Assembly: GCA_002470645.1 (NCBI GenBank)
Contig: DKNE01000024.1
Coordinates: 8,369 to 72,368, forward strand
DNA length: 64,000 nucleotides
DNA from: Patescibacteria group bacterium UBA7396
GTDB lineage: Bacteria > Patescibacteriota > Gracilibacteria > BD1-5 > UBA6164
Direction: 5' to 3'
The notes under the pieces are model-generated. The model had not been told where the DNA came from. It saw nothing but the letters and a program-made list of their open reading frames with translations, and searched no databases. Shown here piece by piece: positions 739-59,282 of this stretch. A program made the position numbers and the translations under genes. Positions within the stretch are counted from its first letter, which is position 1. The number at the start of each line of letters is the position of its first letter.

Positions 739-767
739 TTGACAAAAAAGATTATTACTACTACTAT
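739..767 (+). promoter_or_regulatory. Sigma70-type promoter candidate (TTGACA-17 nt-TACTAT) for the 850..4177 gene string
   Basis: TTGACA lies at 739-744 and TACTAT at 762-767, with a 17-nt spacer. The site is in a 310-bp AT-rich divergent intergenic region. Confidence 0.4.
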
Positions 768-849
768 TTTATATTTATATATTAAATAATTTGTAAATAA
801 AGAAAAAATATGATAAAATGTTAAAAATTAATTTCTAAAATAAAAAAAT

Positions 850-1161: not shown

Positions 1162-1164
1162 TAT

Positions 1165-1422
1165 ATGTCAGAAAGAATTGAAAATGGATTATGAATCGAA
1201 ATGGGTGCTTCTAAAGAAGCATTAAAAAAATGAGATATTAATAAAGCATTATCATATCTGGGAGAACAAACAGATATAGTTGTAGAAGCAAAAAAAGAGG
1301 AATTAGCTGGTTGTTATGAATTAGCTGAGTTTACAAAAAACTTAAATCAAAATGATGATTATGTTGCATGAGTAGATAATATTTTATCTCAATTTTTAAC
1401 TCCTCAAAGTTTAACAGTATAA
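1165..1422 (+). CDS. Hypothetical protein (85 aa)
   Basis: ATG at 1165, 3 nt after the previous stop, open to TAA at 1420-1422. In-frame TGA are read as Gly. No family recognised. Confidence 0.5.
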
Positions 1423-1447
1423 TTTTATATTATAGAAAAAACACAAA

Positions 1448-2824: not shown

Positions 2825-2842
2825 TCACTCATTTTTTTGTTT

Positions 2843-4177: not shown

Positions 4178-4179
4178 AT

Positions 4180-16636: not shown

Positions 16637-16645
16637 TCTTTGAAT

Positions 16646-19198: not shown

Positions 19199-19226
19199 AT
19201 ATTTATATTTATAACGATAGTGAAAT

Positions 19227-38514: not shown

Positions 38515-39684
38515 ATGGCAAATTTTAAGTTTAATTCAATATCTTATGATAAGATAAAAGAATCTATACAATGAAAATATATGATAGAAGCTATAGATAG
38601 TCCTATAGATTGCAATTTATTAGTTTACTGATTACCTTGAGCATGAAAAAGTACTATTGCTGCTCATAGACTTGATAAATTTAATAGACAAAATAAAAAG
38701 GTTATTTATTTAACTTATTGAAAATTATTATCAGAATTTTTAAAACAATGAATAGATGATATTAGCGCTAAAGTAAAATTTAATTCTTTTTGGAAATGGT
38801 TTTATGAAATTAGAAAGAAACTAAATCTTAATTATATAAAAATAGAAAACATAAAATCAGAAGATGTAAAAGAAACTTTTTCTAAGTATTTAGAAAAATA
38901 TGGAAAATTTGATGTAATTATAATAGATGAATGACAAGATATTTTACAATATATTTATGAACATATTTGAATTTTGTCAAATCATATTTCTATTTTTGCA
39001 GATGATGCCCAACAAATAATTGTTAGAACTTGAGAAAATAAAATGACGGAAATTATAAAATGATATTTGAATACAGAAACATATCAATTAACATTAAATA
39101 GAAGAAATCCAAAAAGTTTATATGAATTTGCATTACAGTTGAATCCAAAAAATGTTGAAAAGTGAGATATAAAGTTAATGGAAAATAAACCAGAGCCAGT
39201 AATTTTTTATGATTGTTGTGATAAACAAACTGAATTAGTTCAAATATTAAAAATTATTGATGATAATAAATCTAAAAATATTGCTATATTATTTTCTCAA
39301 ATAGAACAAATTAGTTTATTTGAAACAGATTTAAAAAGTGAAAATTTTTATGATTATACTCTTTATAATAGTGAAAATAATTTTAATATAAATAATTTTA
39401 AAAGCCCTTTAATTACTACTTTCAAATCTGTGAAATGATTAGAAGTTGATATTGTTATAATTCCTAATTTATACCCAAGTATAGAATATAAATATTTAGA
39501 TAATAATCAGCTGTTTGTAGCTTTTACTAGAGCAAAAGAAAAACTTATTATTACTCATCATAGTTGATGAAGTCAGATAGAAAAAATTTTAAGTAAATTT
39601 GATTCTAATACTTATTCATCATATAAAATATGAAATGATTCTTGAAATAAGAAAGAGATAAGTATAGAAGATATAGAGTTTTAA
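38515..39684 (+). CDS. Compact SF1 (UvrD/RecD-like) P-loop helicase/ATPase (389 aa)
   Basis: Walker A is VYGLPGAGKST (Gly as TGA) and Walker B is VIIIDEGQD. The C-terminal UvrD_C-like motifs are TFKSVKGLEVDIVII and LFVAFTRAKEKLIIT. Track ORF 39178..39438 is in the same frame. Confidence 0.7.
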
Positions 39685-39713
39685 TAATATTTTTATTTTT
39701 TTAATCTAAAATT

Positions 39714-41339
39714 ATGGCTAAAAAATGAGAAACAACTAAAAAATCAAAAACAGTAAGTAATAGTAAAAAGTATATTCAAATTTCTCAATGAAATCTGTTA
39801 TATTTTTTGACAAAATGATTTATTTATCCAGTTAATATAAATGAAAATAAAAACTGGTTAGAAGAGAATGATTTATTTTATTTATTTAAAAATTATATTC
39901 CATTTGTTTCTAAAAAGATAATATGTAATTGAGTAAACATAGATAATATTATATTTTTAGAAGTAGATGAATTAAAAGATATTATTGACTTAAAAAATGA
40001 TATTTGGTTATATAATTGAATAATACCATTTAGTAAAGTTTCATCTATATATATTGAAAATAAAGCAGTATATGAATCTATAATTACTAGTAATTATAAT
40101 AATATTTTTATACCTAAAAATAAGATTAAGATACAAAAAATAAACTTAGAAAATAAAGAAATATCTAATACTCAATTAGAAGATAAAGAAAATGATAATA
40201 TTGAAAGACTTAAAGATATTTATAATAATAAAAATAAACAATTATGATGAAATCAAATGATAAAGTTTATTGATGAAGATATCTGGAAGCTTTTTAATAC
40301 TAAGAATACAAATAAATCTCAAGAGATGTTATTTTTTTTAAACAATTATTTAGAAAAAAAAGATAAAGATATAAATGATAAAATTTTATTATTTATAAAT
40401 GACTTAATAAACAAAAGAATAAAATTTGAAGGGAAAGAAAATTTAAAAAATTTATGAAATAAAATAAAAACTATTGTTAAAGAATTGAATATTCCTAGTG
40501 ATGATCAAAAAATATCTGAATTCTTAAAAAATTTAAAGAGTTATATTGATACGACTTCTCCATCTATATCAGATATAATAAATATAGAAAAAGATTGAGA
40601 TAATTATGGAATATTATTGTTTTTAATTTTATATAAATATTGAAATGAAAAATTAGAAAATTTTGATAAATATTGACTATCGTTGATTAAAGATAAAAAA
40701 ATAAAAATATTACTTTCTTATTTATATTGAGAATATAATTGATATAATTCTTTATATTCAGAATTAAAACTAAATGATGATATAACAAACAAATTAATTC
40801 ATGAATGAAACAAAATTGATTATAAAGAACTTGTTGATATTGTAAATGATGAAAATAAAATAAAAATAAAAAAACTGAAAACTATAAGAGATAGTAATAT
40901 TGTTTGGGCTTATGAAGAATTTTTTATTGATAAAAATAATATTGATTGATATACAGATTTGGAAAATAAATTAAATGATGAAATAGAAGCTAAAGATGAA
41001 CTACAAACTAAACTAAATAATGAAACTAAGGCCAAAGATGAACTACAAACTAAACTAGATGAAGAAAAAGAGAGTAGAAAAACTTTAGAAAAAGAACTAC
41101 AGAATATAAAAAATCAACTATCTACTAAAGAAAATGAGTTAAATAAAGAAAAACAAAAGAATGAAGATTTGAAAAAAAACATTGATCAAAAAGAAGAGAA
41201 AATAAAAGAATTTGAAACTAATAAAGAAGAATTATTGCAATATTTTCAAGAGTGAATAAATCAATTTAAATCTAACAAAACTCAAAACAATGAATCTAAC
41301 AAATGAGCAGATTGAAATTATACAGGCGGACTTTTCTAA
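39714..41339 (+). CDS. Hypothetical 541-aa protein: unknown N-terminal globular domain, helical middle, C-terminal coiled coil
   Basis: ATG at 39714. Track ORFs 40257..40457 and 40959..41255 are in the same frame. The C-terminal heptad-like stretch is AKDELQTKLNNETKAKDELQTKLDEEKESRKTLEKELQNIKNQL.... The stop is TAA at 41337-41339. No family recognised. Confidence 0.6.
40992..41057 (+). repeat. Exact 24-nt direct repeat (AAAGATGAACTACAAACTAAACTA) at 40992-41015 and 41034-41057, period 42 nt
   Basis: Direct reading. It encodes KDELQTKL twice within the coiled coil. Confidence 0.85.
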
Positions 41340-42759
41340 TATTCTTCTCATAAATGCTTTTGCTTGAACTTGAAAAACGACAACATTAGTGGAATTTTGT
41401 AAATCAAGACCAAATGATAATATACTTTATCTTTGCTATAATAGATGATTAAAAGAAGAAGCTGTTGAAAAATTTAAAAATCTAAAAAATGTAAAAGTTT
41501 CAACGATTCATTCAATAGCTTATAAAGAAATATGACATAATTATTCTCAAAGACTTTGAAATTTGAGGCCGTATGATTTAGCTAAATACTTTCATTGAGA
41601 TATGAAGTATTATTATGGATATTATACTTTGCTCATTTTTAAAGATTTTCTAAATTCATGAGATACATTTGAAACATATTTAAAAAATTTAGATAATGAA
41701 ATAGATAATATTTTAAAATGATTTAATGGAAAGTATAATTCAAATATGTTAATTAAGGCTTTTTCAAACATTTGGAAAGATTTATTAAATTGAGAAAAAT
41801 TAAAAATAGAACATGATGTTTATTTGAAATTGTACCAGTTATCAAAGCCTAATTTAAAACATTTTGATTATATTTTAGTTGATGAGGCACAAGATGTAAA
41901 TTGATGCATGCTGGATATAATTTTAAAGCAAAAAACAAAAAAAGTTTTTATTTGAGATTCTTTTCAGCAAATCTATCAGTGGAGATGAAGTAAAAATACT
42001 TTTAAAATATTAGAAAATGAAACTGATAAAGTAGAATTATATTTAACTTGAAGCTTTAGGTGTGCTAAAAATATTACTGATATTGCAAATCAATATTTAA
42101 AAGTTTTATGATCAAAATCAGAAATACAATGATTAAATAAAAAAAGAACAAACTTAGATAATCAAACAATTATTTGAAGAACAAATGCTGGAATTATGAA
42201 ATATATAATTAAAAATAAATGAAATGTATTTTATGTATGAGGATTTGAAAGTTATAATTTTAGTTTGTTGCTAGACATTAATTATTTGTATAATAATGAT
42301 TATACAAAAATAACTAACACTTTTGTAAAAATATTTTGAAGTTTTTGAGAGTTAAAAATGTATTCTGAGGAGTGAAAGGATCAAGAAATAAAAGCAATGA
42401 TTAAACTTTTTGAAGAAATTATTTGAAAAACAATTAATATTAAAGAATTAAGATGAGTTGATAATATAGAGGAATTGGTTTTTTTATTGAAAAAAGAGTT
42501 AACAACTGATTATTTATATTCCACTTATGCTGTTTCTTCAGCACATAAGTCAAAATGATTAGAGTGGGAAAATGTAGTTTTATTAGATGATTTTGAAGAT
42601 ATAAATGAAACTTTAAAAGAAATTGATAAATTATCATGAAACCAAAAGGAAGAAAAATTAGAGAAACTATTAGAAGAAGTAAATATTTTGTATGTAGCTT
42701 GCACTAGAGCAAAACAAAAAATACAGATAAATGATAGGTATTTAATTGCAGAAAAATAA
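41290..42759 (+). CDS. UvrD/Rep/PcrA-family SF1 helicase, compact form (489 aa)
   Basis: The sequence contains [63 protein letters not shown] and [13 protein letters not shown]. The ATG at 41290 overlaps the preceding gene by 50 nt. The stop is TAA at 42757-42759. Confidence 0.8.
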
Positions 42760-45897: not shown

Positions 45898-45963
45898 AAA
45901 TAAGAATGATAAGACAAAAAACCTCGTTTTTCTTTTGAAAAAATATAAAAATATGTTAGAATA

Positions 45964-48900
45964 ATGCTAAATAATTATTTTAACATTTTTTTTATGCAAA
46001 ATTATACAAAAATTCAAAAATTTCTCTCTTTTTTGCTCATATTTTCAATCCTTTTTTCTTTCAGTGTAAACATAACATTTTTTAGTTTTTTAGGAACTAT
46101 TTTTGCTCAGGATGCAAAAAACTATAATGTAGTTTCTATTTTTGTACAAGAAGAAATTTATTCTTGAGTGAGATCTAGTGTTGATAGATATGCAAGAAAT
46201 ATCCAATGAGTTTTAGAAAATACAAAAACAATGATTATCCCTATTTCTGGAGATACTCACCCATTTAATATTGCATCATTAAATGAAAAACTTTATTTTG
46301 AATGATATAATTGACTCGGTGGATTAACTGGCAATTCAAAATTAGTTGGAAGTATTTTTATTTGAGATATTGCTCTTCCTGTTGTTGAAAATAGAGGGAG
46401 TTATGAAAAAACAGTATTCCCTTATGTTGATTTTGATCAAAAGCTTTATATTTTTGATGAAACAAAAAAAATCTTTCAATTAAATAAAAATGTTATTTCC
46501 ACTCCAAAAGCAGAAATTTGGCATGGATTTATTTCTCCAAATACAGGAAATAGAACACAAGATATACAAGAAATTAATGAGTATTTTTCAAAAAATAATG
46601 ATTTTTATACAGGAGGATGATTATTTCAAAATACTCAGGGAATTATGAATGGGAAGCTTGATGAAGACTTATTATCAACATATGAACCACATGTTTTTTA
46701 TTATGATCAAATTAGAGAAACAAAAGCAGTAAAATATGTAGATTATAAAGCATATGAAGCTACTCTTCTTTATAAAGAAGATCTTTCATACAATAGATTT
46801 TCTGCTGAATTAGCTGAAAAATTAAAGGCGAACTATTTTTGAGCACAATCTGATTATATTGGAGATGTTGGAAGTATTTTTTGAAGTGGAATTGATTTAA
46901 GTACCATGTTATTATGACCAACTACACAAAATATACCTGATGTACAAACAAGACATATTATTCAAAATACTACTAAAAATTTTCTTCAAATTTTCAATGG
47001 AAGTGCGCTTGGTGATATGAGAAAAAATGTACATAATGCTGGAAGATATAATTCATGATCAAGTAATGTTTCGGTTGATTTAATACCAACGTTGTTAACA
47101 AGTCTTGATATGCTTTCTCAAACATCAGTAAAAAATGTAAATAATGATGTGGAAAAAATTATTGATGAAGTAGTAAAAAAAGGTCTTTCTAGAAATATTG
47201 CTATTCCAAGTGAATTTCAAGTAGGTTCATGAACATATATTAATTTTTTGTATTGAATGCAATGATGAAAAATTACCTCGGCTTGAGAGTGTAGTTTTTA
47301 TAGAGGTTCTACGTATAGTGGGGGGAATTTAGTAGGAGCAAATAGAGCTTTTAATATTAATAATGTCCAATGAGATATTGATATGTGTCAAAGAGCAGAT
47401 ACAAGATGATATTGGTGAGGAAATTCTCCGTTGAATCTTGATACCACAAATTCAGCGAACTGAGAAATTTGGAAATTAAAATTTAGTGATCCTACTAATG
47501 CTATAGTTCCTCTTTTTGATATTTTATGATGATTAAAAACCACTGATACAACAAAAAACCCAGATCCAAGAATGTGTTTTGATAACAATCTTATTTTAAC
47601 AAAAGTAGAGTGAAGTTCTTGAGAATGATGAAATTTAGAAACAAGTTATAGTGTTCCAGTCAATGGAAATCCTGCTATTAATTGGAGTTGTAGTTCTACA
47701 AATATTAAGTTTCCTTATACGTATTCTTTTGATGAGACATATAAAAATTTTCCAACACTCCCCGTAGAATCATGTGATGAGCATTATTTAAAATTAGATG
47801 GAAATACCATAAAAGCCCATACTGTTAATTGTTGAGAGTGATGATGATCATGAGGATGAGTTTCTACTCCAATTCGTGAATGAATGGAAAATGTTCATGA
47901 GAGAATGTGAAGTGGCTCTACTCAGACAATTTACAATTTTCATAAAATTGCTTCTTGGATAGAACATAAAGCACCAACATCACAAGAATTATATAAACAA
48001 ACTCAATATATGATTTCTCCAAATCTTCCAATAGACAAGGATAGATATATTGATTTTATTGCGGCAGATAATACTTATGCAAAGATTGAATATCCGTATC
48101 TTTTTAGAGTATCATCTCCTGAAAGCTTTAATTTTTCTGCTACAAAAACAGCATTAAAACAATATCTTGATCAGAAATCTCAAGAAATTAATGCTCTTAT
48201 TCAAGCAAAAGATCCATCAAAACTTACTGGAGAGGATTTAGCGATATATCAATTACTTACTACAGGAACTTATCCACAAGCAAATATTGATTTATATGCT
48301 TTACTTTTAGCAAAACCAGATAAGGAGATAGAAATTTTATGAGATAAAAAAAGTCTTAGTTATATTGATACTCTTACATTTTCTATATTATGGAATAATT
48401 TAACAAGTGTTTCAGCAAAATATGCATTTATTTTCGAAAATTATCTTTCAGATCAATTTTGATGAAATGATTATAATTTTTATCTTCCAAAAAATAAAAA
48501 ACAATATGAAATAGCATATTTATGAGCTCCTGGAGATCCTAGAAATATGTACATTAAGCTTGATCCAGAAGATAAGTGAGAAAATCCTTACACATCTATT
48601 TTACAAGCAAATCAAAATCTTGATAGTTATTTATTGAGTATAAAAGATAATAATGATACAAGTGCTAATTTTAAATGTGCACCTCCAGAATGAGTTCCAA
48701 TTTGGGAATGGATTCCAGCAGTAATGTGTCGGTTAAAAGATATGTTACCACCAAAAATTAGTATTAATGAGTGAAATTGTTGACTTCCAGCAATGTCTTT
48801 TTCAGATGATTGAGAAATAGAAGTGTGTACTTCTTGTCAATCTACTCAAACAGGTTCTCAAATATCATGAGAAGATTTGAATAAAAATGGGATTCCAGAT

Positions 48901-51900
48901 ATCTTAGAAAAAGATGTCAAAAATGCGGTACTATCATTAAATACAAATTCTTCAAAATATCCATATAATAAAACATGATTTATTGAGGCATCTCTTTTAA
49001 ACCAGTCTGGAGCACGTATTACTCATGATAGTTACTCAAATGTAGCTTTTGAGCTTATAAAAGTAGAAACACCTCTTGATGAACAAAAAGAATTTTCTTC
49101 ATCTAACACATATACTTTATTTGATAAAGAAAATAATACTCTTAATTCAGACCAAGCGAAAAAACAAGCAGAAGGATACATAAATTTTAGTGATATTCAA
49201 GTAAGATTGAATAGAGGAGTTTTTAAATATAATTTTTCTACAAAGTCAAAAGATGCTAATATTACTTTGAGGGTTATTCTCGAATTAAAAGCATATAATT
49301 GAGATGTTATTGAACGTAAGACACAAGATATTATATTGCAAATCAGAGGAGATTTATTGTATGCATCCAGTTATAAATTATCTCAATTTGATGGCGAATT
49401 ATCACTAGATTCTTTAAGTCAATGAATATCTGTTTCAGAGTACCAAAATATTTTTCTTATTGAAGAAAAGGATTTTGTAGATTTGAGATCAAATCTTTCA
49501 TCTCTTGATAATCTTTCTCTTGCAAAACAAAAACTTTTTTTAAGTCTTGAACACCAAGATAAAAAATGAAATAGAATTCCTATAACCTATCCATTATCGG
49601 TAACATTTTATAATCAACAAGCAGAAGTTGTTTTTAGTCAAACTTTGGCATCATTATCTTCCCCAAAATCATTATGAGCGTTTAAGGATTCTTGAATTTA
49701 TTCTCTTGAAATTAAAGACGCAACGGGTTTTATTTTAAAGAAAACACTCACTCTTCTTCCAGATATTGCTACAAAAATAGAACCAAAACTTTCTACAAAT
49801 TTGATGGAAAAATGAGGTGCTATCACGACTCATGTTTTTAGTATTTATGATAAATATGACAATCCAACACAAGCGGAACTTTATACTGTAGAAGCAGAAA
49901 TTTCTTGAAATAGTGTAGTTTTTGAAGATGGGACTAAAAAGCAAATATTTCAAGTGTATGACGGATATAGAGCATTTAGATTAAAAACTACTCCGGTAGC
50001 AGGAAATGCTAATATTACTTTTTCGTTAAAATACGCAGAACAAACTCTTGATAAAAAAACCGTACCAATTTCTGTTGTGGATAAAATTGATTTTGATATT
50101 ATATTACCTTCAGAGATAAAAGTTTGAAATAATGAGTATAAATATTCTCTTCAAGTTAAAAATCAATCAGAGAAAAGCAATTTTAATTCAAGAGCATATT
50201 TAGTGAGTAATGCGCAATATATTAAATCAGTTGATGGATATATTGATATTAAAAATTCTGTTTGAAGCTGAAGTTTTCAAACAAAAACAAAAGCTTGAGA
50301 AAAAATAAAACTTGAATTTAAAATAGAGTGAGTGAAAGATTCTATTTATAAAGAAGTAAATATTCTCCCAGAAGTATGATTGAAAATCGGGCTTACTCTT
50401 TCAAAATCAAAAATGGAGGCAAGTCCAACATCAACAGCTATTTTGTATGCGGAAATAAAAGATAGATATAATAACCTTGTATGGACAGATAATCAAACTC
50501 AGTTAGACTTAGAAATATTAGATAGATATTCAAATATTATTCGTGCGAATATATCTTCAAAACAAGTACAAAAGTGAAAAGCAAACTTTATTTTGAGTGC
50601 AACAGATATTCCTGGAAGTGCTTATTTTAAAGTAGGGTCTACTCCAAGTTTATCAGAAAATTCTTTTACACTTACTGGACAAACTCCTTTTACTAAAGAA
50701 ACATTAGATTCTTTAGCTGGCATGAGAGAAGACTGAATTTTAACAGAAATATGAAAAAAGTTTTTTACTGATTATGATAGTAAAAATTATAGATTTAAAT
50801 ATTATGATATTTCAATACTACAATCAAGCGAGGATTTTAAAGCACAAAATCCGCTTGTTCAAAATAGACTTCTCTCACTTTTTGAATCAAATAATACTAT
50901 TACAGTAAATGGAGTATGAGAAAACATATGAAAAATAGAAACATTTTATTTTTGGAATAAACAAAAAATAGAAGGCAATAAGTATAATTCTATTTATACA
51001 ACTCTTTTGTGAAGTAATTATTGAGATCTTACTGTTTCAGACAACTTGGCAAACTCTATTATTTTTGATAAAAATAATAAAGCTCTTTGAGTAACTACTC
51101 TTTTAAGTGATACTACAAAACATCAGGAAATTCTTAATATTAATCCTAATGGAAGTTTGGAGCTTCATTCTACCTTGAGTGATGTAGCATATGATATCAG
51201 TACATATTTTAATATTACTGAAAAAGGATGATTGGAAGCGGTTATGTATAATAACACTTTTGATACTCTTGTTTCAAGAGTGTATTATAATCTCAATTCT
51301 CCAAAAATTATTGATAGATGTACTACTTCAAATATTTCAGATTGTTTTGATAAACAAAAAACTACTGTTTTACTCCAATCTTTACAATCTGGATATACTT
51401 CGAAAGTTGATGAAAGAACTGGATTAAAATTTGCAAATTCTCAAAATCAAATTCTTTTTGAAATATCTCCAAGTGGAAATATAAAAAAATCTATTGATGT
51501 TACATTAGAATTAGCTAAAAATTATACAACAGGACTTGTCTTGAATATTAAACAAGGAAATAAAATAATTTGAATGTTTGCTATATCTTTTCCAAAAAGT
51601 AATGTAAAAATTATTAGAGATATGAGTCTTTTTGAGGAGGTAAAAGATTCTCAAGAAACAGGATGAATGATTATTTATTTAGAGGCAAGAGATTATTTTT
51701 ATAAAGCAAAATATCTCTGATCTTCTACAAAAGAGGATATTTGATATGTGATTGCATATAATGATCCATTTTCATCAAATACTCCATGAGTAAATCAATT
51801 TGGAACTTTTTTTAATTTTTGATATGAAAACTTTCATTCAAAAGATTGACTTGGGTGGAAAGAAGACAATAAAATACTTCTCTCATTTGCAGCTGGAAAA

Positions 51901-54900
51901 ACTATTTGACAGTCAACAAAAGATTTTATGACTTTTGGGCTTATTAATATTTGAGATCCTGTTGCGAGTTTAAAGCCTATTGCTAAAAAATTACCTTGAA
52001 CACAAAAAACAAGAAAATATGATTCAACGATTTGATATTTGATATCAAAGGATGAGGATAATTTAGAGTATGATGTTTTTGATTATAATAATGATGGGAA
52101 TGATGATGTCATTATTCTTAAAAGAGGATGATATGTTCAACTTCTTGAAGGAACTGATGTTTTTTGAGATTTTCTTGATAGAGGAAATGTAGTATATATT
52201 GCTGATATTTCACCAAAATCTCCAATTATTGCGTGAGATTTTTCAGGAGATGGTTTTTCTGATATAGTATTATTAAATAAAGATAGAAAAATTATATTTC
52301 TATCAAATCAAATTAAAGATTTTAGAAGAATAGATACCAATATTACTTTTGATGGAAATATCAGCCAAATTATATGATTTGATATGGATTTAGATGGAAG
52401 AATGGATCTTGTAATTCTGGATGATATGTGAGATTTATATATCTTTTATGGAACACAACAAGAATGAATTTTCCAAAAAAAATTGGTTGATTCTTGATTA
52501 TGAATAGTGCTGAGTAAAAAATCTAGGAAAGATAGAGGAGCTCTTTATTATGATTGATTATATCAAATTCCTCGTGATAAAACTCAAGAAAATTTACTTG
52601 ATAGTGAAGCTTTATTGAAACAACTAGAACAAAATAAAGCTACCCTTTCTTGATCTCAAAATACTTCTCAAAATGGTATAAATGAATCATTGATTGATAA
52701 GCTCATTTTTACACAAATGAATTATACTCCAGTTTCTGCACGTTCACAAACTTGAGGTATTGTTTCTCAAATGCCAGCATCTATTATGACGCCATGAATG
52801 ATTTCTGGAATACAAAACCAACAAAATTCTATCAATGATATTATAACAACTTTTTCTTGAACTGCGACACAAAAATCACCAGATCTATCAAATGGAGTAG
52901 CATGAGTAGAAAGATGAATACAAGATGCAATTACATGAGTAGAAGATATATTAAATAGTTATACAGATGACCCAAATACACAAGTTACTACTCAAGGGAC
53001 ACAATTATCCAATGATATAACTACTTTTTTAAAAAGTGAATATGCAGAATTTCAATGATTTGAAGTTTCTAAAACATATATTGATATAAATGATGATCCT
53101 CTGAGAGGGGGAGATAATGTTGAATTGGTTATAAAAATTAAAAATAATACAACTCAACCATTAAAAGATTTTGCTTATGCTGAAAAAATTTACAATATAT
53201 TTTCTCTTTCTTCAAGCTCAAAATTTTCTCTTCAAATTTGAGAAAAAAATATTGCACATGAAGATGTATATCTCCAATCTTCACCAAGTAGTCAGTTTAC
53301 ATTTTTGATAGATAGTTATTATGAAAATGGGCAAAAAAAATATATAAATCTTCTTGCGTGAGAAGAAATGACTTTACGTATTACTTTGACTACTAATGCC
53401 TTTGAATATGGACATATTGATGTATGATTTTTTGATAATCAAACAGAACATTGAGATATTATTTTTAAAGATAAAGATGAAAATTGTTGACAGGAAGTAG
53501 GATTGTATAAGTCAATTGCTGTCAGAGAATATGAAAGAACTATTCATGCTCCTTCATGTGAAAATACACTCCCTGATGAAGTAGATGAAAATGCAGTTGA
53601 TGAAGATGGGAATGGTATTCCTGATTATATAGATAAACTGTTAAGTGGGGAAAATAGTCATATGGATTATGCAAATGACCAACTTTGAGAGTTTAATAAA
53701 GATACAGATTGAGATGGTATTCCTGATAGAGATGATACTTCGCCTGGATATGATTCTAGCCAAGATGATTTCATGAATTCTTTAAATATGGCAGATATCA
53801 ATATAGATAAAATTATGCAATGAATAGATACTATATTGGCATGATTATCTTGTGGATTTTGATGATGATGATGTATATCTTCTCCTCTTAATTGGGCTCC
53901 ATTAGCTCCTTGAAACGATCCTACTCTTTTTGGTATGCCATTGTTAGATGGATTAAATATAGGTGAATGACTTCCGATTTTCTCTGCTTTAACATGACAA
54001 TGGTATGGGCCATATTGTTGACCATCAGTTTGGCCAGCAAGTCCACTCAATACAGTATGATGTTGAGATCTTTGAGCATGAGGTCGGCTTTGAATTAATA
54101 ACCCAGCCAATTTTATTAGAGTCTTTGTTACGCCAACACTTACTTGAGCAGTATGAATTGCGGTATGTTTTTGATGACCAGCATCTATTGCATGAAGAAC
54201 AAACCCTGAATGACTTCACCCATTTGTCCCATGATGAAATTGTGTAGTTGCGGCTACTCCAATGTTATGATGTAAAAATGATGGATCAGATGGAGAAATT
54301 TATAATCTTTGAAATCCTTGAGCAAGCATAATAAATGGAAACTGTTCTTGAAATAATAATACTTCGTCAACACCATATCTATGAGAAGTATGATGAGACT
54401 ATGTAAGCTATAAAAATACAGGAAGAAAATCACCAAAATTAGATGTAGATTTAAAAGAAATTCTTTCGACAGTTGCAACTTGACCATCTCAAAGATGGAG
54501 CTTGCCAAATGAACCACTCCTTAATATCTGAAATTCATCTAACCCAGATCTTTCAGTAGATATAGATTTTTGAGCTATTTCCGAATGAAATTTTCAAGAT
54601 GTTATTGATGTGAGTATGACAAGAATATCTCCATTCCCTGACTTTATTATGGAATGGGTTACTAGACAAATCGAGGAAATTGCAAATAAATTAACAGATT
54701 TTCCTACTCTTTATATTATTCTTCCAGATTTTAAATGAGTGTTTGATAATGATTGGGGATGATTTTTAGATAAACTCCAATCTTCATATAGTGCCTGAGA
54801 GCAAACTCAACAACAAAAACAAGCGTCTATTCAATCTCAAATAGATGCTAATAAATCTCAACTAGGGAAAATCAATTGTGATAACAATACTACAGAATGT

Positions 54901-57900
54901 TTATCATATGAACTTGAAATATCAAAATTGGAGGCTCAAAAAAATCTTTGAGCAAATCAAACTGTATGAGGGATTAAATCGGTATATGAATTTTTATCGA
55001 GTATGCCTATGATTAAAATAGAACCTCAAAAAGTAAACTTTAATATTCCTTGGCCATGAGATAAAGCAAGTATTGATAAAGCTATTGCTGATTTTGAAGC
55101 AACAAAACTTCAATGGCAGCAAGAATTTGAAAGAGCAAAATCCCAATGGAATATAAATAATTATGATTGTGTTGCGACTTCTTCTTCACAAGAATGTAAA
55201 AATATGCTCAATGTTCAAAGTCTTATTAATTCTATAGATAAAAATATTGAAATACTTAGAGGCTATAAAAATATTCCTGAGGATGTTTATAGAATGCTCA
55301 AAATAAAAGACATTCGGATAGAGCAAATCTTATGTAACATTGAAACTATTTCAAAAATTACAGGTTGACGGATTTGAGATAATGGAAAAAGATTTAAAGC
55401 TTGGGTAGAATTATATGTTCTTATTAAGGCTATATTAAAATCATGGCAATTATTGGTAGATGTATTTATAGATTATGATGCAGAATGTCATGAGTGTAAA
55501 AATGAAAGATATGATCTTTTATACTTTGTATGGAAGCTCATTAGTATGGTTATGCCAAAAATCCCAGTAATTCAATTTCCAAAATGGCCAGATATATATC
55601 TTGATTTACATAATATTAGAGTGTCTTTGGTAGTAGGACTTCCAGAGTTTGAGTTTAATCTGAGACCTATTGTTTTGCCAACTTTACCAGAATTATATCT
55701 TCCTAATAGTCCAAATGTAGGATTAAATTTACCAAATCTTCCATTGTTGCCAGAGTTTATTCTTCCGACTCTCCCTGATTTACCAACTCTGCCAACAATA
55801 GAGCTCCCTAATTTACCACCACCACCAAAATTACCAAAACTCCTTTCTGCAATAGAAGCGTTTTTAAATATTTTGAAATTGATTACAAAAGTGATGTGTA
55901 TTTTAAAAACGTCTCCTTTTGTACCTGAATGGAGAGCCTGAGACCAAATAGCATTTATTACAGAAAGAAGTGGGTATTTATGAATTGACTTTCTTGATAT
56001 GTCTCTTCCTCAATTTTCTTTCCCTTTTGTAGATGCGATTAAAGTATCAACATTTGTAAATTTAGAATTCGAAGTAGAATTTTTAGTAGAAATGGCAAGA
56101 CAAACAGCTCTTCCAATAAATGTTTTTGGAAACAATATTGCAAATATGCTGAATATTTGATTAGGAGATCTTGATTTTAGAGCAGCTACTCCAGAAGATA
56201 TTAATGTTGATGTAGAGAGAGATGGAAATATAGAAACAAGTTTTAAAGAGGATAAAAAAACAATTTCTTTGTTTGATTTAGCATCAATATTTTCAGAAAA
56301 TTTGATTCATTTATATGCTGGTATAGAAAAAAATTCAAAAATTGAACTTTCTAACACAGAATTTAAAAATGAAATATTACAACAACTTCCATACATTACC
56401 AATGAAAAAATAGTTTGAGTATGGAATGATGCACTTTGATATTCATTTACGAAAGAAGATGCAATTATAAAGGAATTGATATTAAATAATGAGGAAAAAT
56501 ATAGAGAAGTCGAATCTATTTTACAAGAAGAAAGAGAAAAAAATAATCAAATACTTTATACTATCCAAAAAGAATGAATTCAAGATACTCCAAAAAATAT
56601 TCTTGTGTATTCTAATGAAAAACAAAGTATATCAGATTATAATACAAGATTGAATCCATATAATAAAAAGGCATTAGATTCTCTTAATAATCTTTATATA
56701 GAAGATCAACAAGTGGGTGAAATTAGGACAGAATCAAAACAAATCTTAGCACAAGTACAGTCTTGATTAAATAATTTTTCTCAAAAAATGCAAGAATCTA
56801 AAGAGGCTTTTGAAAAAGTAGAAATAAGATGACAAAATCAATTATTAGCAACTAATACATCACCAACAGCGACTCAAAATATAGCACCCAATGAAAAAAA
56901 TACTTCTCAAACAACACCTCAAAGTTCACAATCATGTCAAATGAACTCAAATGGATATAGTTATATTTATAAATGAATTTATATTGTAGAACAATTTTTA
57001 AATAAAAAAATTAGTTACTATTTATTTGATTATTTAGATGAACTTTCTTGAAAAGAAATAATTAAAGAAAGAGATTTTGATAATGATTGAGACCAAGACA
57101 TTATTTATATGGTATGAGATGAAATTTACTTAAAACAAAATTATATCAGTAAAAAACAAGTAAAAAATATTTACTCAGGTTCTCCTATTATTCTTCCTTC
57201 TACAAAAAATGATTATATAAAATCAACCTTTATTTCTGGAGTAAATAATTTTGAAGAATCTGTGAGTGATAGTAATTTTATAAATATATCATTTGATGCA
57301 AAACAAAATCAAAGTAATTATAGGGTAGAATTTTTCCCAATAGTTGATAAATTTGACGATATGATAGCACCACAAGATACATACATTCCAAAAAATATTA
57401 AAAAATATATTATAGATGCTTTTACTGATATAGATAGACAGACACTGGACATGGAGACTAATGCTCAAAATACGGTAAACATCAGAAAAAATCTTGCATA
57501 TATTGATGCTATTTCAAATACTGCTGGAATACATTTATTTACGAAACAGTTAATAAATTTAGCAGATGATTTGAGTACAAATACTCAAGTAACACTTAAT
57601 GCAGGTTCAAAAATTTATTCATGAAAAGATTCTGTAAGGATTAGATATTATCTCTATAAAGAAAGGAATAATGAGTTAAAAATGAAAGAGATAAAATTAA
57701 ATGCTTTATCAAATATTGCTTTTAAAGATGATATTATAGTAGTTTGACTAGTCGGGGAAGCATATGTTGAGTGAAAAACATTTATTAATCTAACATGAAA
57801 TCAAATAGCGACGTATCTTAAAAAACCACTGTTACCATGAAGTATTTTCACATACAAAGATATGGAAATACCACTGAGAAATTCTTATGTAACAATAAAA

Positions 57901-59217
57901 TATTATGATGGAAGTGATGCATTATTAAATTTTCAAGATATAACATATTATCAATTATATGATTTATGAGCTACAAGACTTAAATACTCAATAAGAACAT
58001 CTCTCAAAAATGATTTCTATTATGCGAAAATAAGAAGTTTTAAAAAACAATTATTTTCAACTTACTCAAATCAAGTTCTTCTGTCACCGCAAAATGAATC
58101 TGATACAACAGCACCAGAAATTTCTAATATTTCAACACTTCGTCTTCCTGTTTATGTACAAAAAACATTTGATTTATCGGAAGCTATATTTGAAAATAGT
58201 TGAAATAATAATATTAAAGATATTTATATAGATTTTGATTTAGGGGTTGATAGTAATGCTGATTGAAACAAGACAAATGATAGAGATTTTGTTTTAGGAA
58301 ATATAAAAAATAATCTAAGAATTACAAAAGAATGAGCAAGAATTTTATTACAAGCAGGACCATTTACAGATCTTATAAATAAACAAATCAGATTGTATGT
58401 AATTGATGCTAATAATAATGTATGAGTGAAAAATATTAATTTTGTTGTTTATTCACCAATTCCAAGAATTGATTCTATAGAAAATAATAATATTTCTTGA
58501 ATATTGGATGAAGTACTTATGAAAGTTCCAGTAAGTTTTTATAGATTAAGGAATAATGAGCTGACTCGTCTTCAAGATTATAATAAAAATATGCAAACTC
58601 ATACTATAGAATGATGAAAATTTTTATTTAATACGTGAGTAAATACATCAACAGGAGCTACGGTTTCATATTCATGAGAGACATTATTTACATTAAATGA
58701 AGAGACAGGGAAAATTTATATTTCAGATATTTCTAAACTGAGAAATAAATTGAATATTAACGTTTATTCATCAAATAATAAAAATAATGAGTACCTATAC
58801 CCAAATATTGTTATTACTAAAGAAAATATTCCAATTTTTCACCAATATTTAGTGACTCCAAATACAGGAAAAGTACAATCAGTGACAAATTTTATTGAAG
58901 TGATAGAATGACAATATAAAAAACAACAATGAGTGTATTATATGCATCAAGCTTCAAATAATTTTTGATTTGTAAGTTTACCACTTTGATTAAAAAATAA
59001 CGCATGAGATTTATATGTATATTCACTTATTGATGAAAAAAAGGTACCAATTTTTACTATTTTTAAAGATGGAAGAATAGATGTAGTATGAGATTTATAT
59101 TATATTGAATATTCGACATACTGAGATTATATAGTTTATAATTTAAAAAGGAGATGATTAGAAACAACTATTTGAAGAGTACTTATTATTCCAGAGGAAA
59201 ATTATATAGTAAAATAA
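45964..59217 (+). CDS. Giant secreted multidomain surface protein (4417 codons from ATG 45964; 4407 from ATG 45994)
   Basis: Every 60-nt line of the listing starts in this frame. I read all codons from 45964 to 59217 and found no TAA/TAG until TAA at 59215-59217, with one to several TGA per line. The N-terminus has a signal/TM segment (FLSFLLIFSILFSFSVNITFFSFLGTIFAQD). Recognisable modules are Ig-like (about 49740-50700), FG-GAP/VCBS-like repeats (about 52080-52470) and TSP3-like Ca-binding DxDxDGxxD motifs (53590-53760). Further modules are a Gly/Cys-rich core (53821-54600) and an LP-rich segment (55630-55850). Confidence 0.85.
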
Positions 59218-59220
59218 AAA

Positions 59221-59250
59221 AATAAGAGAAAAAATTCTCTTATTTTTTTT
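59221..59250 (+). terminator. Rho-independent terminator after the giant gene
   Basis: AATAAGAGAA-aaaa-TTCTCTTATT forms a 10-bp stem followed by T6+. Confidence 0.8.
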
Positions 59251-59254
59251 ACTA

Positions 59255-59282
59255 AAAAAGCAACCTAATGGTTGCTTTTTAT
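59255..59282 (-). terminator. Rho-independent terminator after typA
   Basis: AAGCAACC-taat-GGTTGCTT has a T-run on the minus strand, 2 nt after the typA stop. Confidence 0.7.

What the first reader, a model, noticed from the sequence alone, without database searches (positions are those of the whole stretch)
45964..59217. A 13.25-kb single ORF encodes a giant secreted protein of about 4400 aa that is invisible in the standard-code track
The listing's 60-nt lines all begin in this reading frame. I read every codon from the ATG at 45964 to the TAA at 59215-59217. There is no TAA/TAG, and most lines contain one to several TGA.

The product has an N-terminal signal/TM segment and no obvious C-terminal anchor. 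It is a mosaic of the following parts:
- Cys-rich stretches (about 47250-47900).
- A Ca-binding-like NKNGIPDILEKD motif (about 48880).
- Invasin/Big-like Ig domains (about 49740-50700).
- FG-GAP/VCBS-like repeats (about 52080-52470).
- TSP3-like DEDGNGIPDYID / DTDGDGIPDRDD motifs (53590-53740).
- A Gly/Cys/Trp-rich core (53821-54600).
- A Cys-containing coiled-coil region (about 54780-55330).
- An LP-rich segment (55630-55850).
- About 3 kb of unassigned beta-rich sequence.

The gene occupies 21 percent of the window and has its own strong terminator. Giant adhesin-like proteins are plausible mediators of host-cell attachment in episymbiotic CPR bacteria. Most of this protein has no family I can name.
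Basis: partly seen in the sequence, partly recalled or inferred. Interest (0 to 1): 0.65.

Follow-up and report, generated by a model that had tools for sequence, protein, structure and literature searches.

The report
Conserved giant surface protein of Gracilibacteria
The 13.25-kb stretch is one real gene, read with a genetic code in which TGA means glycine, for a roughly 490-kDa exported surface protein that nearly all sampled Gracilibacteria share end to end; its job, probably contact with other cells, is still unknown.

Summary
Window 45964-59217 (+) is one ORF of 4,417 sense codons with 179 in-frame TGA, no TAG and a single terminal TAA. TGA means Gly (code 25), shown by catalytic motifs in neighbouring genes and by GGN-Gly at the same positions in high-GC orthologues.

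The gene is not an assembly artefact. Collinear orthologues of 4,000-4,600 aa occur in at least 50 other species (GC 20-59%, 31-79% identity). dN/dS is 0.15-0.24, with purifying selection in every 200-codon bin.

The protein has a cleavable-looking Sec signal and no C-terminal, LPxTG or lipobox anchor. It has 26 conserved Cys and no internal repeats. Only one Pfam family matches, FG-GAP/VCBS at aa ~2040-2150.

More distant collinear relatives of 3,900-6,066 aa, one of them from Peregrinibacteria, carry Ig-like, DUF11, TSP3 and C-terminal SLH wall-anchor domains. This places the family on the cell surface.

The best-conserved part (aa 2600-3400) matches nothing known. Both AlphaFold models were poor, so no fold could be assigned.

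It is less a shuffled mosaic adhesin than a conserved, single-copy surface protein. Orthologues already sit in GenBank as "VCBS repeat-containing" or "hypothetical" proteins. It is therefore a new member of a known kind. A host-contact function is inferred, not shown.

The parts
45935..45962 (+). Promoter-like site: TTGAAA, 16-nt spacer, TG-TAGAAT.
   Evidence: Consensus scan, 10 of 12 matches plus an extended -10 TG. The number of such sites in the region is no higher than in shuffles, so this is weak evidence. Its position favours Met11 (45994) as the start codon.
45964..59217 (+). Giant ORF of 4,417 aa under code 25, with TAA at 59215-59217. The probable true start is ATG 45994 (Met11), which would give 4,407 aa.
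   Evidence: Orthologues align from Met11 to the last residue (P0034 1-4400 against 11-4417). The C-terminus '...NYIVK' is conserved in tier-1 relatives.
45994..46107 (+). Sec-type signal peptide or N-terminal anchor (aa 11-48), with a probable signal-peptidase I site IFA|QD.
   Evidence: This is the only strong hydrophobic segment, Kyte-Doolittle 2.08. The '..(V/I/L)FA|' end is seen in the window protein and in several N-termini listed. There is no Cys before aa 443, so no lipobox. Cleavage is inferred.
46111..47643 (+). Conserved N-terminal domain (aa ~50-560) of unknown fold. Motifs include SKLVG..(I/L)(V/I)GD(I/L)xLPVV, PYVDF, EIWHG, PYVFYYDQ.RE and NAGRYN. Conserved Cys at 443, 475 and 538.
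   Evidence: 40-51% mean identity over 50 orthologues. Also conserved in distant tier-2 giants. No Pfam, NCBIfam or PDB match. AlphaFold model poor.
47941..48813 (+). Second conserved region (aa ~660-950) with conserved Cys 905, 922 and 939.
   Evidence: 41-64% identity in the family alignment. Aligns to tier-2 relatives. Cys conservation.
48874..48915 (+). Ca-binding-like motif DLNKNGIPDILEKD (aa 971-984).
   Evidence: Pattern match D.[DN].[DN]G..D. Motif level only.
48961..50763 (+). Beta-rich, probably Ig-like region (aa ~1000-1600).
   Evidence: There is no Pfam hit in the window protein. Window aa 1265-1518 aligns to P0119 1118-1372, which overlaps the Glyco_hydro2_C5 Ig-like hit at P0119 1125-1221. 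In P0085, Invasin_D3 (aa 970-1064, above its cut-off) and Big_1 (aa 1091-1144, below its cut-off) lie at the equivalent relative position in the protein, but P0085 has no BLAST pair to this window region.
52051..52473 (+). FG-GAP/VCBS repeats, like blades of an integrin-alpha beta-propeller (aa ~2030-2170). DxNxDG motifs at aa 2040 and 2140.
   Evidence: Pfam PF13517 E=1.1e-8, 35.9 bits against a 26.9 cut-off, 3 stretches. The same hit occurs in orthologues L062 and L054 and in 10 of 11 tier-2 relatives.
53101..53373 (+). Possible DUF11-like Ig domain (aa ~2380-2470).
   Evidence: P0085 aa 1935-2250 aligns to window aa 2380-2766 (E 7e-4), and P0085 has a weak DUF11 hit at 1934-2021, below Pfam's cut-off. 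Tentative.
53599..53739 (+). Two TSP3-like Ca-binding motifs, DEDGNGIPDYID and DTDGDGIPDRDD (aa 2546-2592).
   Evidence: Pattern matches. Pfam TSP_3 and TSP3_bac are not hit in the window protein at E<=1. TSP3_bac is hit in relatives, but near their C-termini.
53821..54363 (+). Gly/Cys-rich signature module (aa 2620-2800). Motifs: GLSCGFGGGxC..P.NWAPLAPG, FR.F.TPTLTG..G.A.CFG and PGGNC.V.A.P...C..DG. Eight highly conserved Cys.
   Evidence: 53-60% family identity. Invariant columns in A5. Cys conserved 0.90-1.0. The same motifs are recognisable in tier-2 relatives. No known family matches.
54616..55383 (+). Motif R(I/V)S.FPDF.M.WVTRQ.EE...KL...PT..I.LPDF followed by a long helical region with partly conserved Cys pairs (aa 2885-3140).
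   Evidence: Family alignment. AlphaFold predicts long helices in the orthologue P0001 (elements H530-557 and H576-643). Block-mean pLDDT reaches 70-88 only over P0001 residues ~531-560 and 571-610; the rest of the long helix is 41-58. The only PDB sequence 'hits' are non-significant matches to influenza HA2, E 0.16-0.8.
55381..56163 (+). Most conserved module (aa 3140-3400). It holds amphipathic helices WVELYVLIKAILKSWQ (3147-3168), 3185-3203 and 3293-3314, a CxxCxNER motif, PKIPVIQFPKWPDI.LDLHNIR, a Pro-rich LPxLP linker (aa 3223-3292), and PFVPEWRAGDQIA..TER.
   Evidence: 60-78% identity over 50 species with no gaps. pN/pS is 0.08, the lowest of all bins. Hydrophobic moment 0.52-0.54 at mean hydrophobicity ~0.4. 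Hydropathy is below the usual transmembrane threshold when averaged over the family. This module drove the hits in 123 GTDB species. The broader core profile A8, which contains it, gave the 671 representative clusters.
56164..59214 (+). C-terminal ~1,000 aa of beta-rich sequence without family assignment. It includes an FG-GAP-like DFDNDGDQD at aa 3704 and ends at a conserved terminus without an SLH domain.
   Evidence: 17-49% family identity. aa 3980-4255 aligns to tier-2 relatives just upstream of their SLH triplet. No Pfam hit.
59216..59280 (.). Two A-run/stem/T-run hairpins (59216-59249 and 59255-59280) between the giant gene and the convergent typA gene. They look like bidirectional intrinsic terminators.
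   Evidence: Sequence. RNA fold -27.9 kcal/mol, z = -8.67, and 0 of 200 shuffles fold as well. The consensus scan missed them.

Best explanation
This is one genuine, monocistronic gene of a Gracilibacteria (BD1-5) genome that decodes TGA as glycine. It encodes a ~490-kDa acidic protein.

The protein is exported through Sec by an N-terminal signal. It is stabilised outside the cell by conserved disulfides and Ca-binding motifs. It is displayed on, or loosely attached to, the cell envelope.

It is the Gracilibacteria version of an old, collinear family of 4,000-6,000-aa surface proteins. More distant members of that family, at least one of them from Peregrinibacteria, are fixed to the cell wall by a C-terminal SLH module.

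I think it most likely works as a long, low-copy surface structure. The Ig-like domains would act as a stalk. The integrin-like FG-GAP propeller and flanking domains would make contact with another cell, either the host or prey, or with its surface polymers. The invariant 800-aa Gly/Cys-rich, helical and Pro-rich core would be the family's assembly, anchoring or effector module, with unknown chemistry.

Shown: the gene is real, the genetic code is 25, the family is conserved, the FG-GAP repeats are present, and relatives have a surface anchor. Inferred: export and signal cleavage, disulfides, stalk and adhesion roles, copy number, and what the core does.
For: Genetic code:
- TGA sits at the PilB Walker A glycines, the UvrA LSGGE motif, and the leucyl aminopeptidase GKGITFDTGG and NTDAEGRL motifs.
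- In the giant gene, TGA positions align to GGN-coded Gly in six high-GC orthologues 43% of the time. GGN positions give the same 43%. TGG positions align to Trp 63% of the time.

The gene is real:
- 50 full-length collinear orthologues share 31-79% identity across genomes of 20-59% GC.
- dN/dS is 0.15-0.24, and pN/pS is 0.08-0.45 in every 200-codon bin.
- In the seven loci with shorter ORFs that I examined, the homologue is full length and interrupted by one or a few frame changes.
- Both protein ends are conserved.

Surface location:
- There is a single N-terminal hydrophobic segment ending in an ..FA| motif.
- 26 of 32 Cys are conserved.
- FG-GAP_3 scores above Pfam's cut-off.
- Tier-2 relatives are collinear. 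They carry SLH in 11 of 11 and FG-GAP_3 in 10 of 11, plus Invasin_D3, Glyco_hydro2_C5, TSP3_bac and a below-cut-off DUF11 hit.
- One tier-2 relative is annotated as an S-layer homology domain-containing protein of Candidatus Peregrinibacteria.

Literature:
- Giant membrane or surface proteins of 1,392-4,163 aa are proposed to mediate host attachment in the code-25 predator Vampirococcus (PMC8080830).
- Large extracellular proteins, including integrin FG-GAP proteins, are reported in Peribacteria (PMC4736985).
- A 'VCBS repeat-containing protein' was detected by metaproteomics in WB Gracilibacteria 25_16 and 25_26 (PMC11452946). These are the MAGs that yielded orthologues L037 and L008. NCBI names an orthologue 'VCBS repeat-containing protein'.

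Low abundance:
- 58% of the giant's Gly codons are TGA. The SLH-bearing S-layer candidate in the same window uses 0 of 82.
Against: - No binding, localisation or expression data exist for this protein. The link to the metaproteomic VCBS protein rests on name and MAG only.
- The window protein has no recognisable anchor. There is no SLH, LPxTG or lipobox, and no convincing transmembrane segment after the signal. It could be released into the medium.
- Adhesins that track hosts are usually variable, repetitive and fast-evolving. This protein is none of these, which fits a housekeeping envelope role at least as well.
- More than 95% of the sequence has no family. Both AlphaFold models were poor, with mean pLDDT 40.7 and 46.8, so the fold-level claims (Ig stalk, propeller) rest on Pfam hits in relatives.
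- There is no conserved neighbouring gene to suggest a partner system.
Confidence: 0.55

Rival explanations
1. It is a structural envelope component rather than a host-binding adhesin. It would be a conserved scaffold or spacer of the Gracilibacteria cell surface, associated with the S-layer or the wall, needed for envelope architecture or division whatever the host.
For: - Single-copy, collinear and near-universal: it was found in 123 GTDB species genomes by a two-peptide pattern scan alone.
- Uniform purifying selection and no hypervariable or repeat region.
- The sister subfamily carries the classical SLH triplet of S-layer proteins.
- An SLH-type S-layer candidate lies in the same window.
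Against: - The Gracilibacteria proteins lack the SLH module.
- The high TGA-Gly usage (58%, against 0% in the S-layer candidate) argues against a very abundant structural protein, if TGA avoidance does mark high expression. That link is an inference.
- FG-GAP, Ig-like and TSP3-type parts are typical of ligand-binding surface proteins (established knowledge of integrins and invasins).
Confidence: 0.25
2. It is a membrane-active attack device. The conserved core would insert into, or fuse with, the host envelope to open a route for nutrient or DNA uptake. The core consists of a Gly/Ala-rich hydrophobic segment, long helices, amphipathic Lys-rich helices and a Pro-rich linker. The N-terminal 2,500 aa would serve only to reach and recognise the target.
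For: - The conserved hydrophobic segment FVTPTLTGAVGIAVCFGG (aa 2720-2738) is followed by long predicted helices.
- Two invariant amphipathic helices have a hydrophobic moment of ~0.53 at a mean hydrophobicity of ~0.4.
- This is the most constrained part of the protein, pN/pS 0.08.
- The top, non-significant PDB sequence matches of the core profile are several influenza HA2 chains over the helical region, E 0.16-0.8.
- Relatives of these bacteria are epibiotic predators (PMC8080830).
Against: - The HA2 matches are not significant and cover a low-complexity coiled-coil-like stretch.
- The 'fusion-peptide-like' segment holds invariant polar and Cys residues, more like a folded disulfide-bonded domain.
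- Family-average hydropathy is below the transmembrane threshold.
- The AlphaFold model was too poor for any fold comparison, and Foldseek found nothing.
- No pore-forming or fusogen family was detected.
Confidence: 0.1
3. It is not a single functional gene. It would be an assembly chimera, a pseudogene, or several adjacent genes that happen to share a frame. Alternatively the organism uses code 4 (TGA=Trp), as Mollicutes do.
For: - Public gene calls fragment the orthologues into pieces, for example 903 aa from a 1.27-Mb contig.
- Many deposited translations show 4-8% Trp.
- In 7 loci with shorter ORFs that were examined, the ORF is interrupted.
Against: - The fragments come from code-11 calling and the Trp excess from code-4 calling of code-25 genomes.
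- Independent assemblies from at least 50 species give the same uninterrupted ~4,300-codon frame.
- Selection acts on the whole length.
- TGA aligns with Gly, not Trp.
- The chance of such an open frame is ~10^-139.
- In the loci examined, the interruptions are one or a few frame changes within full-length homologues.
Confidence: 0.02

Closest known systems
Uncharacterised GenBank orthologues: 'VCBS repeat-containing protein' MCD5380636.1 (4,004 aa, partial) and 'hypothetical protein PHS92_04120' MDD2487531.1 (4,224 aa), both Candidatus Gracilibacteria
   Same: They match the whole core profile (E ~1e-290 and 1e-273), have the same size class, and come from the same lineage and genetic code. 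They belong to the same family as the window protein.
   Different: They are different species, and nothing is known about their function. Many other deposited copies are fragmented (code 11) or carry Trp in place of Gly (code 4).
SLH-bearing giant proteins of related CPR bacteria, one of them from Peregrinibacteria (MBI2464194.1, 'S-layer homology domain-containing protein', 4,699 aa); others reach 6,066 aa
   Same: They are collinear with the window protein over the N-terminal domain, the Ig-like region, the FG-GAP region, the Gly/Cys core, the helical and Pro-rich module, and part of the C-terminal region. Profile E-values are 1e-70 to 1e-100.
   Different: They share only 22-30% identity, with insertions that take them up to 6,066 aa. 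Their C-terminus carries three SLH domains plus bacterial TSP3 repeats, which the window protein lacks. The one with a taxon name comes from a lineage generally reported to use the standard code (own knowledge; not tested here). Only MBI2464194.1 carries a taxon name, so the lineage of the others is unverified.
Giant membrane/surface proteins of Vampirococcus lugosii (Absconditabacteria). The largest is VAMP_16_20, a hypothetical protein of 4,163 aa (PMC8080830)
   Same: It comes from a code-25 CPR lineage, is the largest protein of a ~1-Mb genome, falls in the same size class, and is proposed to recognise and attach to the host.
   Different: Homology could not be tested because the sequence is not held here. 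The paper assigns no domain to VAMP_16_20 and does not describe a conserved family.
Integrin-alpha-like FG-GAP/VCBS beta-propeller adhesins
   Same: FG-GAP_3 repeats with DxDxDG Ca-binding loops at aa ~2040-2150.
   Different: The repeats make up about 3% of the protein. Only three stretches were detected, so a full seven-bladed propeller is not shown. There are no long VCBS arrays.
Repeat-built giant adhesins exported by type I secretion (LapA/Bap/SiiE/RTX-type)
   Same: The size, the acidic Ca-binding character and the presumed role in attachment.
   Different: There are no tandem repeats and no RTX or C-terminal secretion signal was detected. It has a Sec signal at the N-terminus. The host bacterium is generally described as lacking an outer membrane, for example Sieber et al. 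did not find PilQ (PMC6851277). It evolves slowly and collinearly.

Membership tests
Genetic code 25 (Gracilibacteria/Absconditabacteria: TGA = Gly) | In-frame TGA at positions where homologues have conserved glycine, not tryptophan or a stop. | tested here: met
   TGA sits at the Walker A, LSGGE and aminopeptidase motif glycines in neighbouring genes. In the giant gene, TGA positions align to GGN-Gly at the same rate as GGN positions (43%), and TGG positions align to Trp at 63%.
Gracilibacteria ~4,300-aa orthologue family (unnamed) | End-to-end collinear alignment including the signature core (GLSCGFGGGxC..NWAPLAPG; IKAILKSW; PVIQFPKWPDI; PFVPEWRAGD). | tested here: met
   50 full-length orthologues at 31-79% identity. 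Invariant motif columns. 123 GTDB species matched. 671 representative clusters.
FG-GAP / VCBS repeat proteins (Pfam PF13517, PF01839) | Repeats that score above Pfam's gathering cut-off. | tested here: met
   PF13517 scores 35.9 bits against a 26.9 cut-off, E 1.1e-8, 3 stretches, best at aa 2092-2151. Confirmed in orthologues.
FG-GAP / VCBS repeat proteins | Seven repeats that close a beta-propeller. | tested here: inconclusive
   Only 3 stretches were detected. The structure prediction did not cover this region and the other models were of low confidence.
SLH-anchored S-layer / S-layer-associated proteins (PF00395) | One to three SLH domains. | tested here: not met
   There is no SLH hit in the window protein or in the orthologues L062 and L054 at E<=0.1-1. 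SLH is present in 11 of 11 tier-2 relatives and in the separate window gene 20885-24241.
Sortase-anchored (LPXTG) or lipoprotein surface proteins | A C-terminal LPXTG motif with a hydrophobic tail, or an N-terminal lipobox Cys. | tested here: not met
   There is no LPxTG-like motif and the first Cys is at aa 443. There is no C-terminal hydrophobic segment in the window protein or in 74 large relatives.
Invasin/intimin-type bacterial Ig-like domains (Big_1, Invasin_D3) and Glyco_hydro2_C5 | A Pfam match above the cut-off. | tested here: inconclusive
   None in the window protein. In the distant relative P0085, Invasin_D3 scores 41.7 bits (cut-off 33) and Glyco_hydro2_C5 83.8 bits, while Big_1 falls below its cut-off. 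P0119 also has a Glyco_hydro2_C5 hit that overlaps the part aligning to window aa 1265-1518.
Thrombospondin type-3 / bacterial TSP3 Ca-binding repeats (PF02412, PF18884) | A Pfam match, or tandem DxDxDGxxDxxD repeats. | tested here: inconclusive
   No Pfam hit at E<=1. Two motif-level matches lie 34 aa apart at aa 2546 and 2580, and one more at aa 971. TSP3_bac occurs in tier-2 relatives at a different, C-terminal position.
Repeat-type giant adhesins / RTX proteins | Long arrays of tandem repeats, and a C-terminal type I secretion signal with RTX nonapeptides. | tested here: not met
   Self-BLASTP finds no internal repeat at E<=10. No RTX or HemolysinCabind hit.
Class I viral fusion proteins (influenza HA2-like) | Significant sequence or fold similarity, and a fusion peptide at a cleavage-generated N-terminus followed by heptad repeats. 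| tested here: not met
   The best HA2 matches have E 0.16-0.8 and are not significant. Foldseek finds nothing, on a low-confidence model.

The most novel reading that the evidence does not exclude
The invariant ~800-aa core (aa 2600-3400) is shared by at least 671 representative clusters of 4,000-6,000-aa proteins from Gracilibacteria and related CPR bacteria, at least one of them from Peregrinibacteria. It comprises a disulfide-bonded Gly-rich module, long helices, Lys-rich amphipathic helices and a Pro-rich linker. The most novel reading is that this core is a previously undescribed membrane-active or envelope-penetrating machine. These host-dependent bacteria would use it to breach or fuse with the host cell envelope, and the rest of the giant protein would serve as a targeting stalk.
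Probability: 0.12. Interest if true: 0.85.

Novelty: new member of a known kind. Interest (0 to 1): 0.45.

Why it matters
Gracilibacteria have genomes of about 1-1.5 Mb (complete genomes seen here are 1.0-1.5 Mb). They still keep a 13-kb gene, roughly 1% of the genome, intact and collinear across the whole group. That implies the protein is central to their host-dependent way of life.

It is a concrete, conserved candidate for the still unknown machinery by which these uncultivated bacteria contact their hosts. Its 800-aa core is a large piece of well-conserved protein sequence with no known fold.

There is also a practical point. Public gene calls for this family are often fragmented (code 11) or mistranslated (code 4, Trp for Gly). 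Surveys of giant proteins and of CPR surface proteomes therefore under-count and mis-model it.

Tried and rejected
Searches that failed or found nothing:
- Searching homologues with the full 4,417-aa query timed out.
- Pfam and NCBIfam on the window protein and on high-GC orthologues gave only FG-GAP.
- Profile searches against PDB sequences with the core (A1, A5) and the N-terminal region (A3) gave nothing significant.

Structure prediction:
- I therefore predicted orthologous fragments: P0001 for the core and P0014 residues 1-1042 for the N-terminus.
- Both models were poor, with mean pLDDT 40.7 and 46.8.
- Foldseek against PDB gave no match with E<=0.001 for either model. The third fold search, against the viral library, was not used because the models are unreliable.

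Other negative results:
- Synteny shows no partner gene conserved across the family. One subclade has a convergent cluster downstream whose genes I did not identify. The window's neighbours are housekeeping genes.
- There are no tRNA or Rfam elements in the window.
- There are no internal repeats.

Ideas rejected:
- Code 4 / Mollicutes origin.
- A cysteine-protease (caspase/gingipain-like) reading of the N-terminal 'IWHG' motif. This was my own recollection, and there is no conserved Cys at the expected place.
- A membrane-hairpin anchor at aa 3185-3314. Hydropathy is below threshold and the helices contain Lys and Glu.

Left unproven:
- Whether the metaproteomic 'VCBS protein' of PMC11452946 is the L037/L008 orthologue. 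The supplement gives no sequence or length.

Full report

Yes. The frame from ATG 45964 to TAA 59215-59217 contains 4,418 codons: 179 TGA, 26 TGG, no TAG and a single TAA at the end. The preceding in-frame TAA/TAG ends at 45948. The window has 27% G+C. At that composition, a TAA/TAG-free run of this length has a probability near 10^-139. Under the standard bacterial code the longest ORF inside the region is 187 aa, so the gene is invisible to standard gene calling.

The 'strong terminator' exists. Two A-run/stem/T-run hairpins lie at 59216-59249 and 59255-59280, between the giant gene and the convergent typA gene. Together they fold at -27.9 kcal/mol, with z = -8.7 against shuffles.

**2. Which genetic code?**

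TGA means glycine. In neighbouring housekeeping genes TGA falls on invariant glycines. These include the PilB Walker A (S-g-PT-g-S-g-KST), the UvrA LSG-g-ESQR motif, and the leucyl aminopeptidase V-g-K-g-ITFDTG-g and NTDAE-g-RL motifs.

The giant gene gives the same answer. I looked at its 179 TGA positions in six high-GC orthologues that hardly use TGA. Those positions align to GGN-encoded Gly 43% of the time. That is exactly the rate seen at the window's own GGN positions. TGG positions align to Trp 63% of the time. The organism therefore uses code 25. The closest loci in public genomes are Candidatus Gracilibacteria MAGs.

**3. Is it one real gene?**

Public protein databases at first suggested otherwise. 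Two searches with parts of the protein returned only 9 and 18 fragmentary hits. Reading the underlying contigs showed why.

- The genes had been called with code 11 and so were chopped at TGA codons.
- Others had been called with code 4, giving proteins with 4-8% Trp and 1-3% Gly.
- Retranslated with code 25, a 1.27-Mb contig (GC 45%) and a second contig (GC 47%) each carry one ORF of about 4,360 codons. Both are collinear with the window protein from end to end.

A pattern scan of one genome per GTDB species found relatives in 123 species. I fetched 80 loci from that scan. In the loci that hold a complete gene, the code-25 ORF is typically 4,000-4,600 aa. Their GC ranges from 20 to 59% and they contain 2-297 in-frame TGA. 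I examined seven loci with shorter ORFs. In each, the homologue is full length and interrupted by one or a few frame changes.

Fifty full-length orthologues align with the window protein at 31-79% identity. Against the three closest, dN/dS is 0.18, 0.15 and 0.24. Every 200-codon bin is under purifying selection, with pN/pS 0.08-0.45. Both ends are conserved. Orthologues start at the window's Met11 (MQNYTKIQK...) and end with ...NY(I/V)(I/V)K.

I conclude that this is a single, functional gene. The start codon is probably ATG 45994 rather than 45964. This also fits a promoter-like TTGAAA-16-TAGAAT that ends at 45962.

**4. Anatomy of the protein**

The mature protein would be about 489 kDa with a pI of 4.9.

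- The only strongly hydrophobic segment is N-terminal (aa 17-42). It ends in ..IFA|QD, and several orthologue N-termini end the same way, so it looks like a Sec signal.
- There is no lipobox, LPxTG motif or C-terminal hydrophobic tail.
- There are 32 Cys, and 26 of them are conserved in at least 80% of orthologues. This suggests extracellular disulfides.
- There are no internal repeats.
- Pfam recognises only FG-GAP_3 at aa ~2040-2150, above its cut-off. The same is true for two high-GC orthologues.
- NCBIfam finds nothing.

Conservation along the protein is uneven but never lost.

- The N-terminal ~950 aa are 40-64% identical on average.
- The Gly/Cys-rich block at aa 2600-2800 is about 55% identical.
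- The block at aa 3100-3400 is 60-78% identical, has no gaps, and has the lowest pN/pS of the protein, 0.08.

That last block contains two or three amphipathic, Lys-bearing helices, a CxxCxNER motif, the motif PKIPVIQFPKWPDI.LDLHNIR, a 70-aa LPxLP linker, and PFVPEWRAGDQIA..TER. Short indel-rich spots lie near aa 600-650, 1550-1650, 2250-2350 and 3600-3650.

**5. Wider family and what it says about location**

I ran an exhaustive HMMER search with a profile of the core against 1.84 billion representative proteins. It found 671 clusters at E<=0.001 and 346 at E<=1e-30. Of the best 149, 74 are 3,587-6,066 aa long.

- Tier 1 matches the full profile. These are the Gracilibacteria orthologues. Two carry NCBI names, 'VCBS repeat-containing protein' and 'hypothetical protein' of Candidatus Gracilibacteria.
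- Tier 2 scores E 1e-70 to 1e-100. These are collinear with the window protein over the N-terminal domain, the Ig-like region, the FG-GAP region, the core and part of the C-terminal region. The only one with a taxon name is an 'S-layer homology domain-containing protein' of Candidatus Peregrinibacteria.
- All 11 tier-2 members scanned carry SLH domains (best E 7e-30), and 10 carry FG-GAP_3. Some also hit Glyco_hydro2_C5 and Invasin_D3 above their cut-offs, Big_1 and DUF11 below theirs, and bacterial TSP3 repeats. Their alignment shows three SLH domains followed by TSP3 repeats at the C-terminus.

SLH domains anchor proteins to wall polymers (established knowledge). The family is therefore a cell-surface family.

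The Gracilibacteria branch ends before the SLH module. How the window protein stays on the cell, if it does, is unknown. The window does encode an SLH-bearing S-layer candidate elsewhere, at 20885-24241.

**6. Structure attempts**

Both models were poor. The core model had mean pLDDT 40.7, and only parts of the long helices reached 70-88. The N-terminal model had mean pLDDT 46.8.

Foldseek against PDB gave nothing at E<=0.001 for either model. Profile-versus-PDB sequence searches were also negative. The top hits for the core were several influenza HA2 chains at E 0.16-0.8. These are not significant and lie in a coiled-coil-like stretch. The folds of more than 95% of the protein remain unknown.

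**7. How it most likely works**

- Shown: one gene, code 25, a conserved family, FG-GAP repeats, and a surface anchor in relatives.
- Inferred: Sec export with signal cleavage, and disulfide and Ca2+ stabilisation outside the cell. Also inferred are an elongated architecture and a core that serves assembly, anchoring or an effector role. In that architecture, Ig-like domains would carry a propeller and the conserved N-terminal domains away from the cell.

I favour a role in contact with another cell, at confidence 0.55. Three things point that way.

- The recognisable parts are ligand-binding types.
- Related lineages are epibionts or predators whose giant surface proteins have been proposed to mediate attachment (PMC8080830; PMC4736985).
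- A 'VCBS repeat-containing protein' was detected by metaproteomics in the two MAGs that yielded orthologues L037 and L008 (PMC11452946). Its identity with the giant protein is not proven.

The main rival, at 0.25, is a host-independent structural envelope role. The unusually even conservation, the single copy and the lack of variable or repeat regions fit it well. One observation counts weakly against a very abundant structural protein. The giant gene encodes 58% of its Gly with TGA, whereas the S-layer candidate avoids TGA completely, 0 of 82.

A membrane-active or penetrating function for the core is possible but has only circumstantial support, at 0.10.

Synteny gives no help. The neighbours are housekeeping genes (an aldehyde dehydrogenase-like gene upstream, typA downstream), and no partner gene is conserved across the family.

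**8. Comparison with the known, and novelty**

The protein is a member of an unnamed orthologue family that is already present in GenBank as hypothetical or VCBS-repeat proteins. It belongs to the 'giant surface proteins of CPR bacteria' noted in several papers.

It is not any of the following.

- A repeat-type or RTX adhesin.
- An SLH-anchored protein.
- A sortase substrate.
- Demonstrably a fusion protein.

It is therefore a new member of a known kind. I did not find the following points in the papers searched.

- The family is collinear, apparently single-copy and nearly ubiquitous in Gracilibacteria.
- It shares an ~800-aa signature core with SLH-anchored giants, at least one of them from Peregrinibacteria.
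- It is systematically fragmented or mistranslated in public protein sets.

**9. Verdict**

It is right on the ORF, the code, export and FG-GAP. It is indirect on the Ig-like and TSP3 parts. It is unproven on adhesion, and 'mosaic' is misleading.
- Interest is 0.45. This is a solid, conserved, largely uncharacterised protein that matters for CPR biology, but it is not a new kind of system on present evidence.

Noticed in passing
window 20885-24241 (+): This 1,118-aa Ala/Ser/Thr/Val-rich secreted protein has an SLH domain (Pfam E 3.3e-6, above the cut-off), so it is an S-layer candidate. It uses no TGA at all for its 82 Gly codons. Other genes in the window encode 25-88% of their Gly with TGA. 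Its GC3 is native-like (0.087), so the pattern looks like selection against TGA-Gly in a highly expressed gene rather than recent transfer.
   Followed up: partly
public proteins P0010-P0013, P0016-P0019, P0022, P0025-P0027, P0034, P0037, P0041, P0044-P0049 and others: Many deposited translations of this family (JGI, ENA, Logan) carry 3-8% Trp and only 1-5% Gly, because code-25 genomes were translated with code 4. Others are chopped into pieces by code 11. Both errors corrupt alignments and structure predictions built from these databases.
   Followed up: partly
window 17930-20384 (+): Type IV pilus assembly ATPase PilB (17930-19198) and platform protein PilC (19227-20384) lie just upstream of the S-layer candidate. 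Two further secreted or membrane ORFs precede them (15746-17914). Together these form a small cell-surface gene neighbourhood about 25 kb from the giant gene.
   Followed up: no
window 38515-42759 (+): Three adjacent genes use TGA for nearly all their Gly codons (for example 16 TGA against 1 GGN). They are a P-loop/UvrD-like protein (38515-39684), a 541-aa protein with a Lys/Glu-rich coiled-coil tail (39714-41339), and a UvrD/PcrA-like helicase (41290-42759). This may be a defence or mobile-element module, but it was not examined.
   Followed up: no
L066 and L067 (contig CALDZW010000037.1): The same 27,956-nt contig gave two hits in opposite orientation with identical ORF statistics. This suggests a palindromic (inverted-duplicate) assembly artefact in that MAG.
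   Followed up: no
L009 and 16-19 other loci, downstream of the giant gene: In one Gracilibacteria subclade the giant gene is followed by a conserved convergent cluster. It holds an 891-aa secreted protein, a 450-aa multi-pass membrane protein and a 372-aa cytoplasmic protein. None of the three was scanned against family libraries. The cluster is absent from the window's lineage.
   Followed up: no
L016, L019, L041, L059, L061, L038, L008: The orthologous genes here are full length but switch reading frame one or more times. These could be MAG sequencing errors, pseudogenes or programmed frameshifts. I did not distinguish between them.
   Followed up: partly
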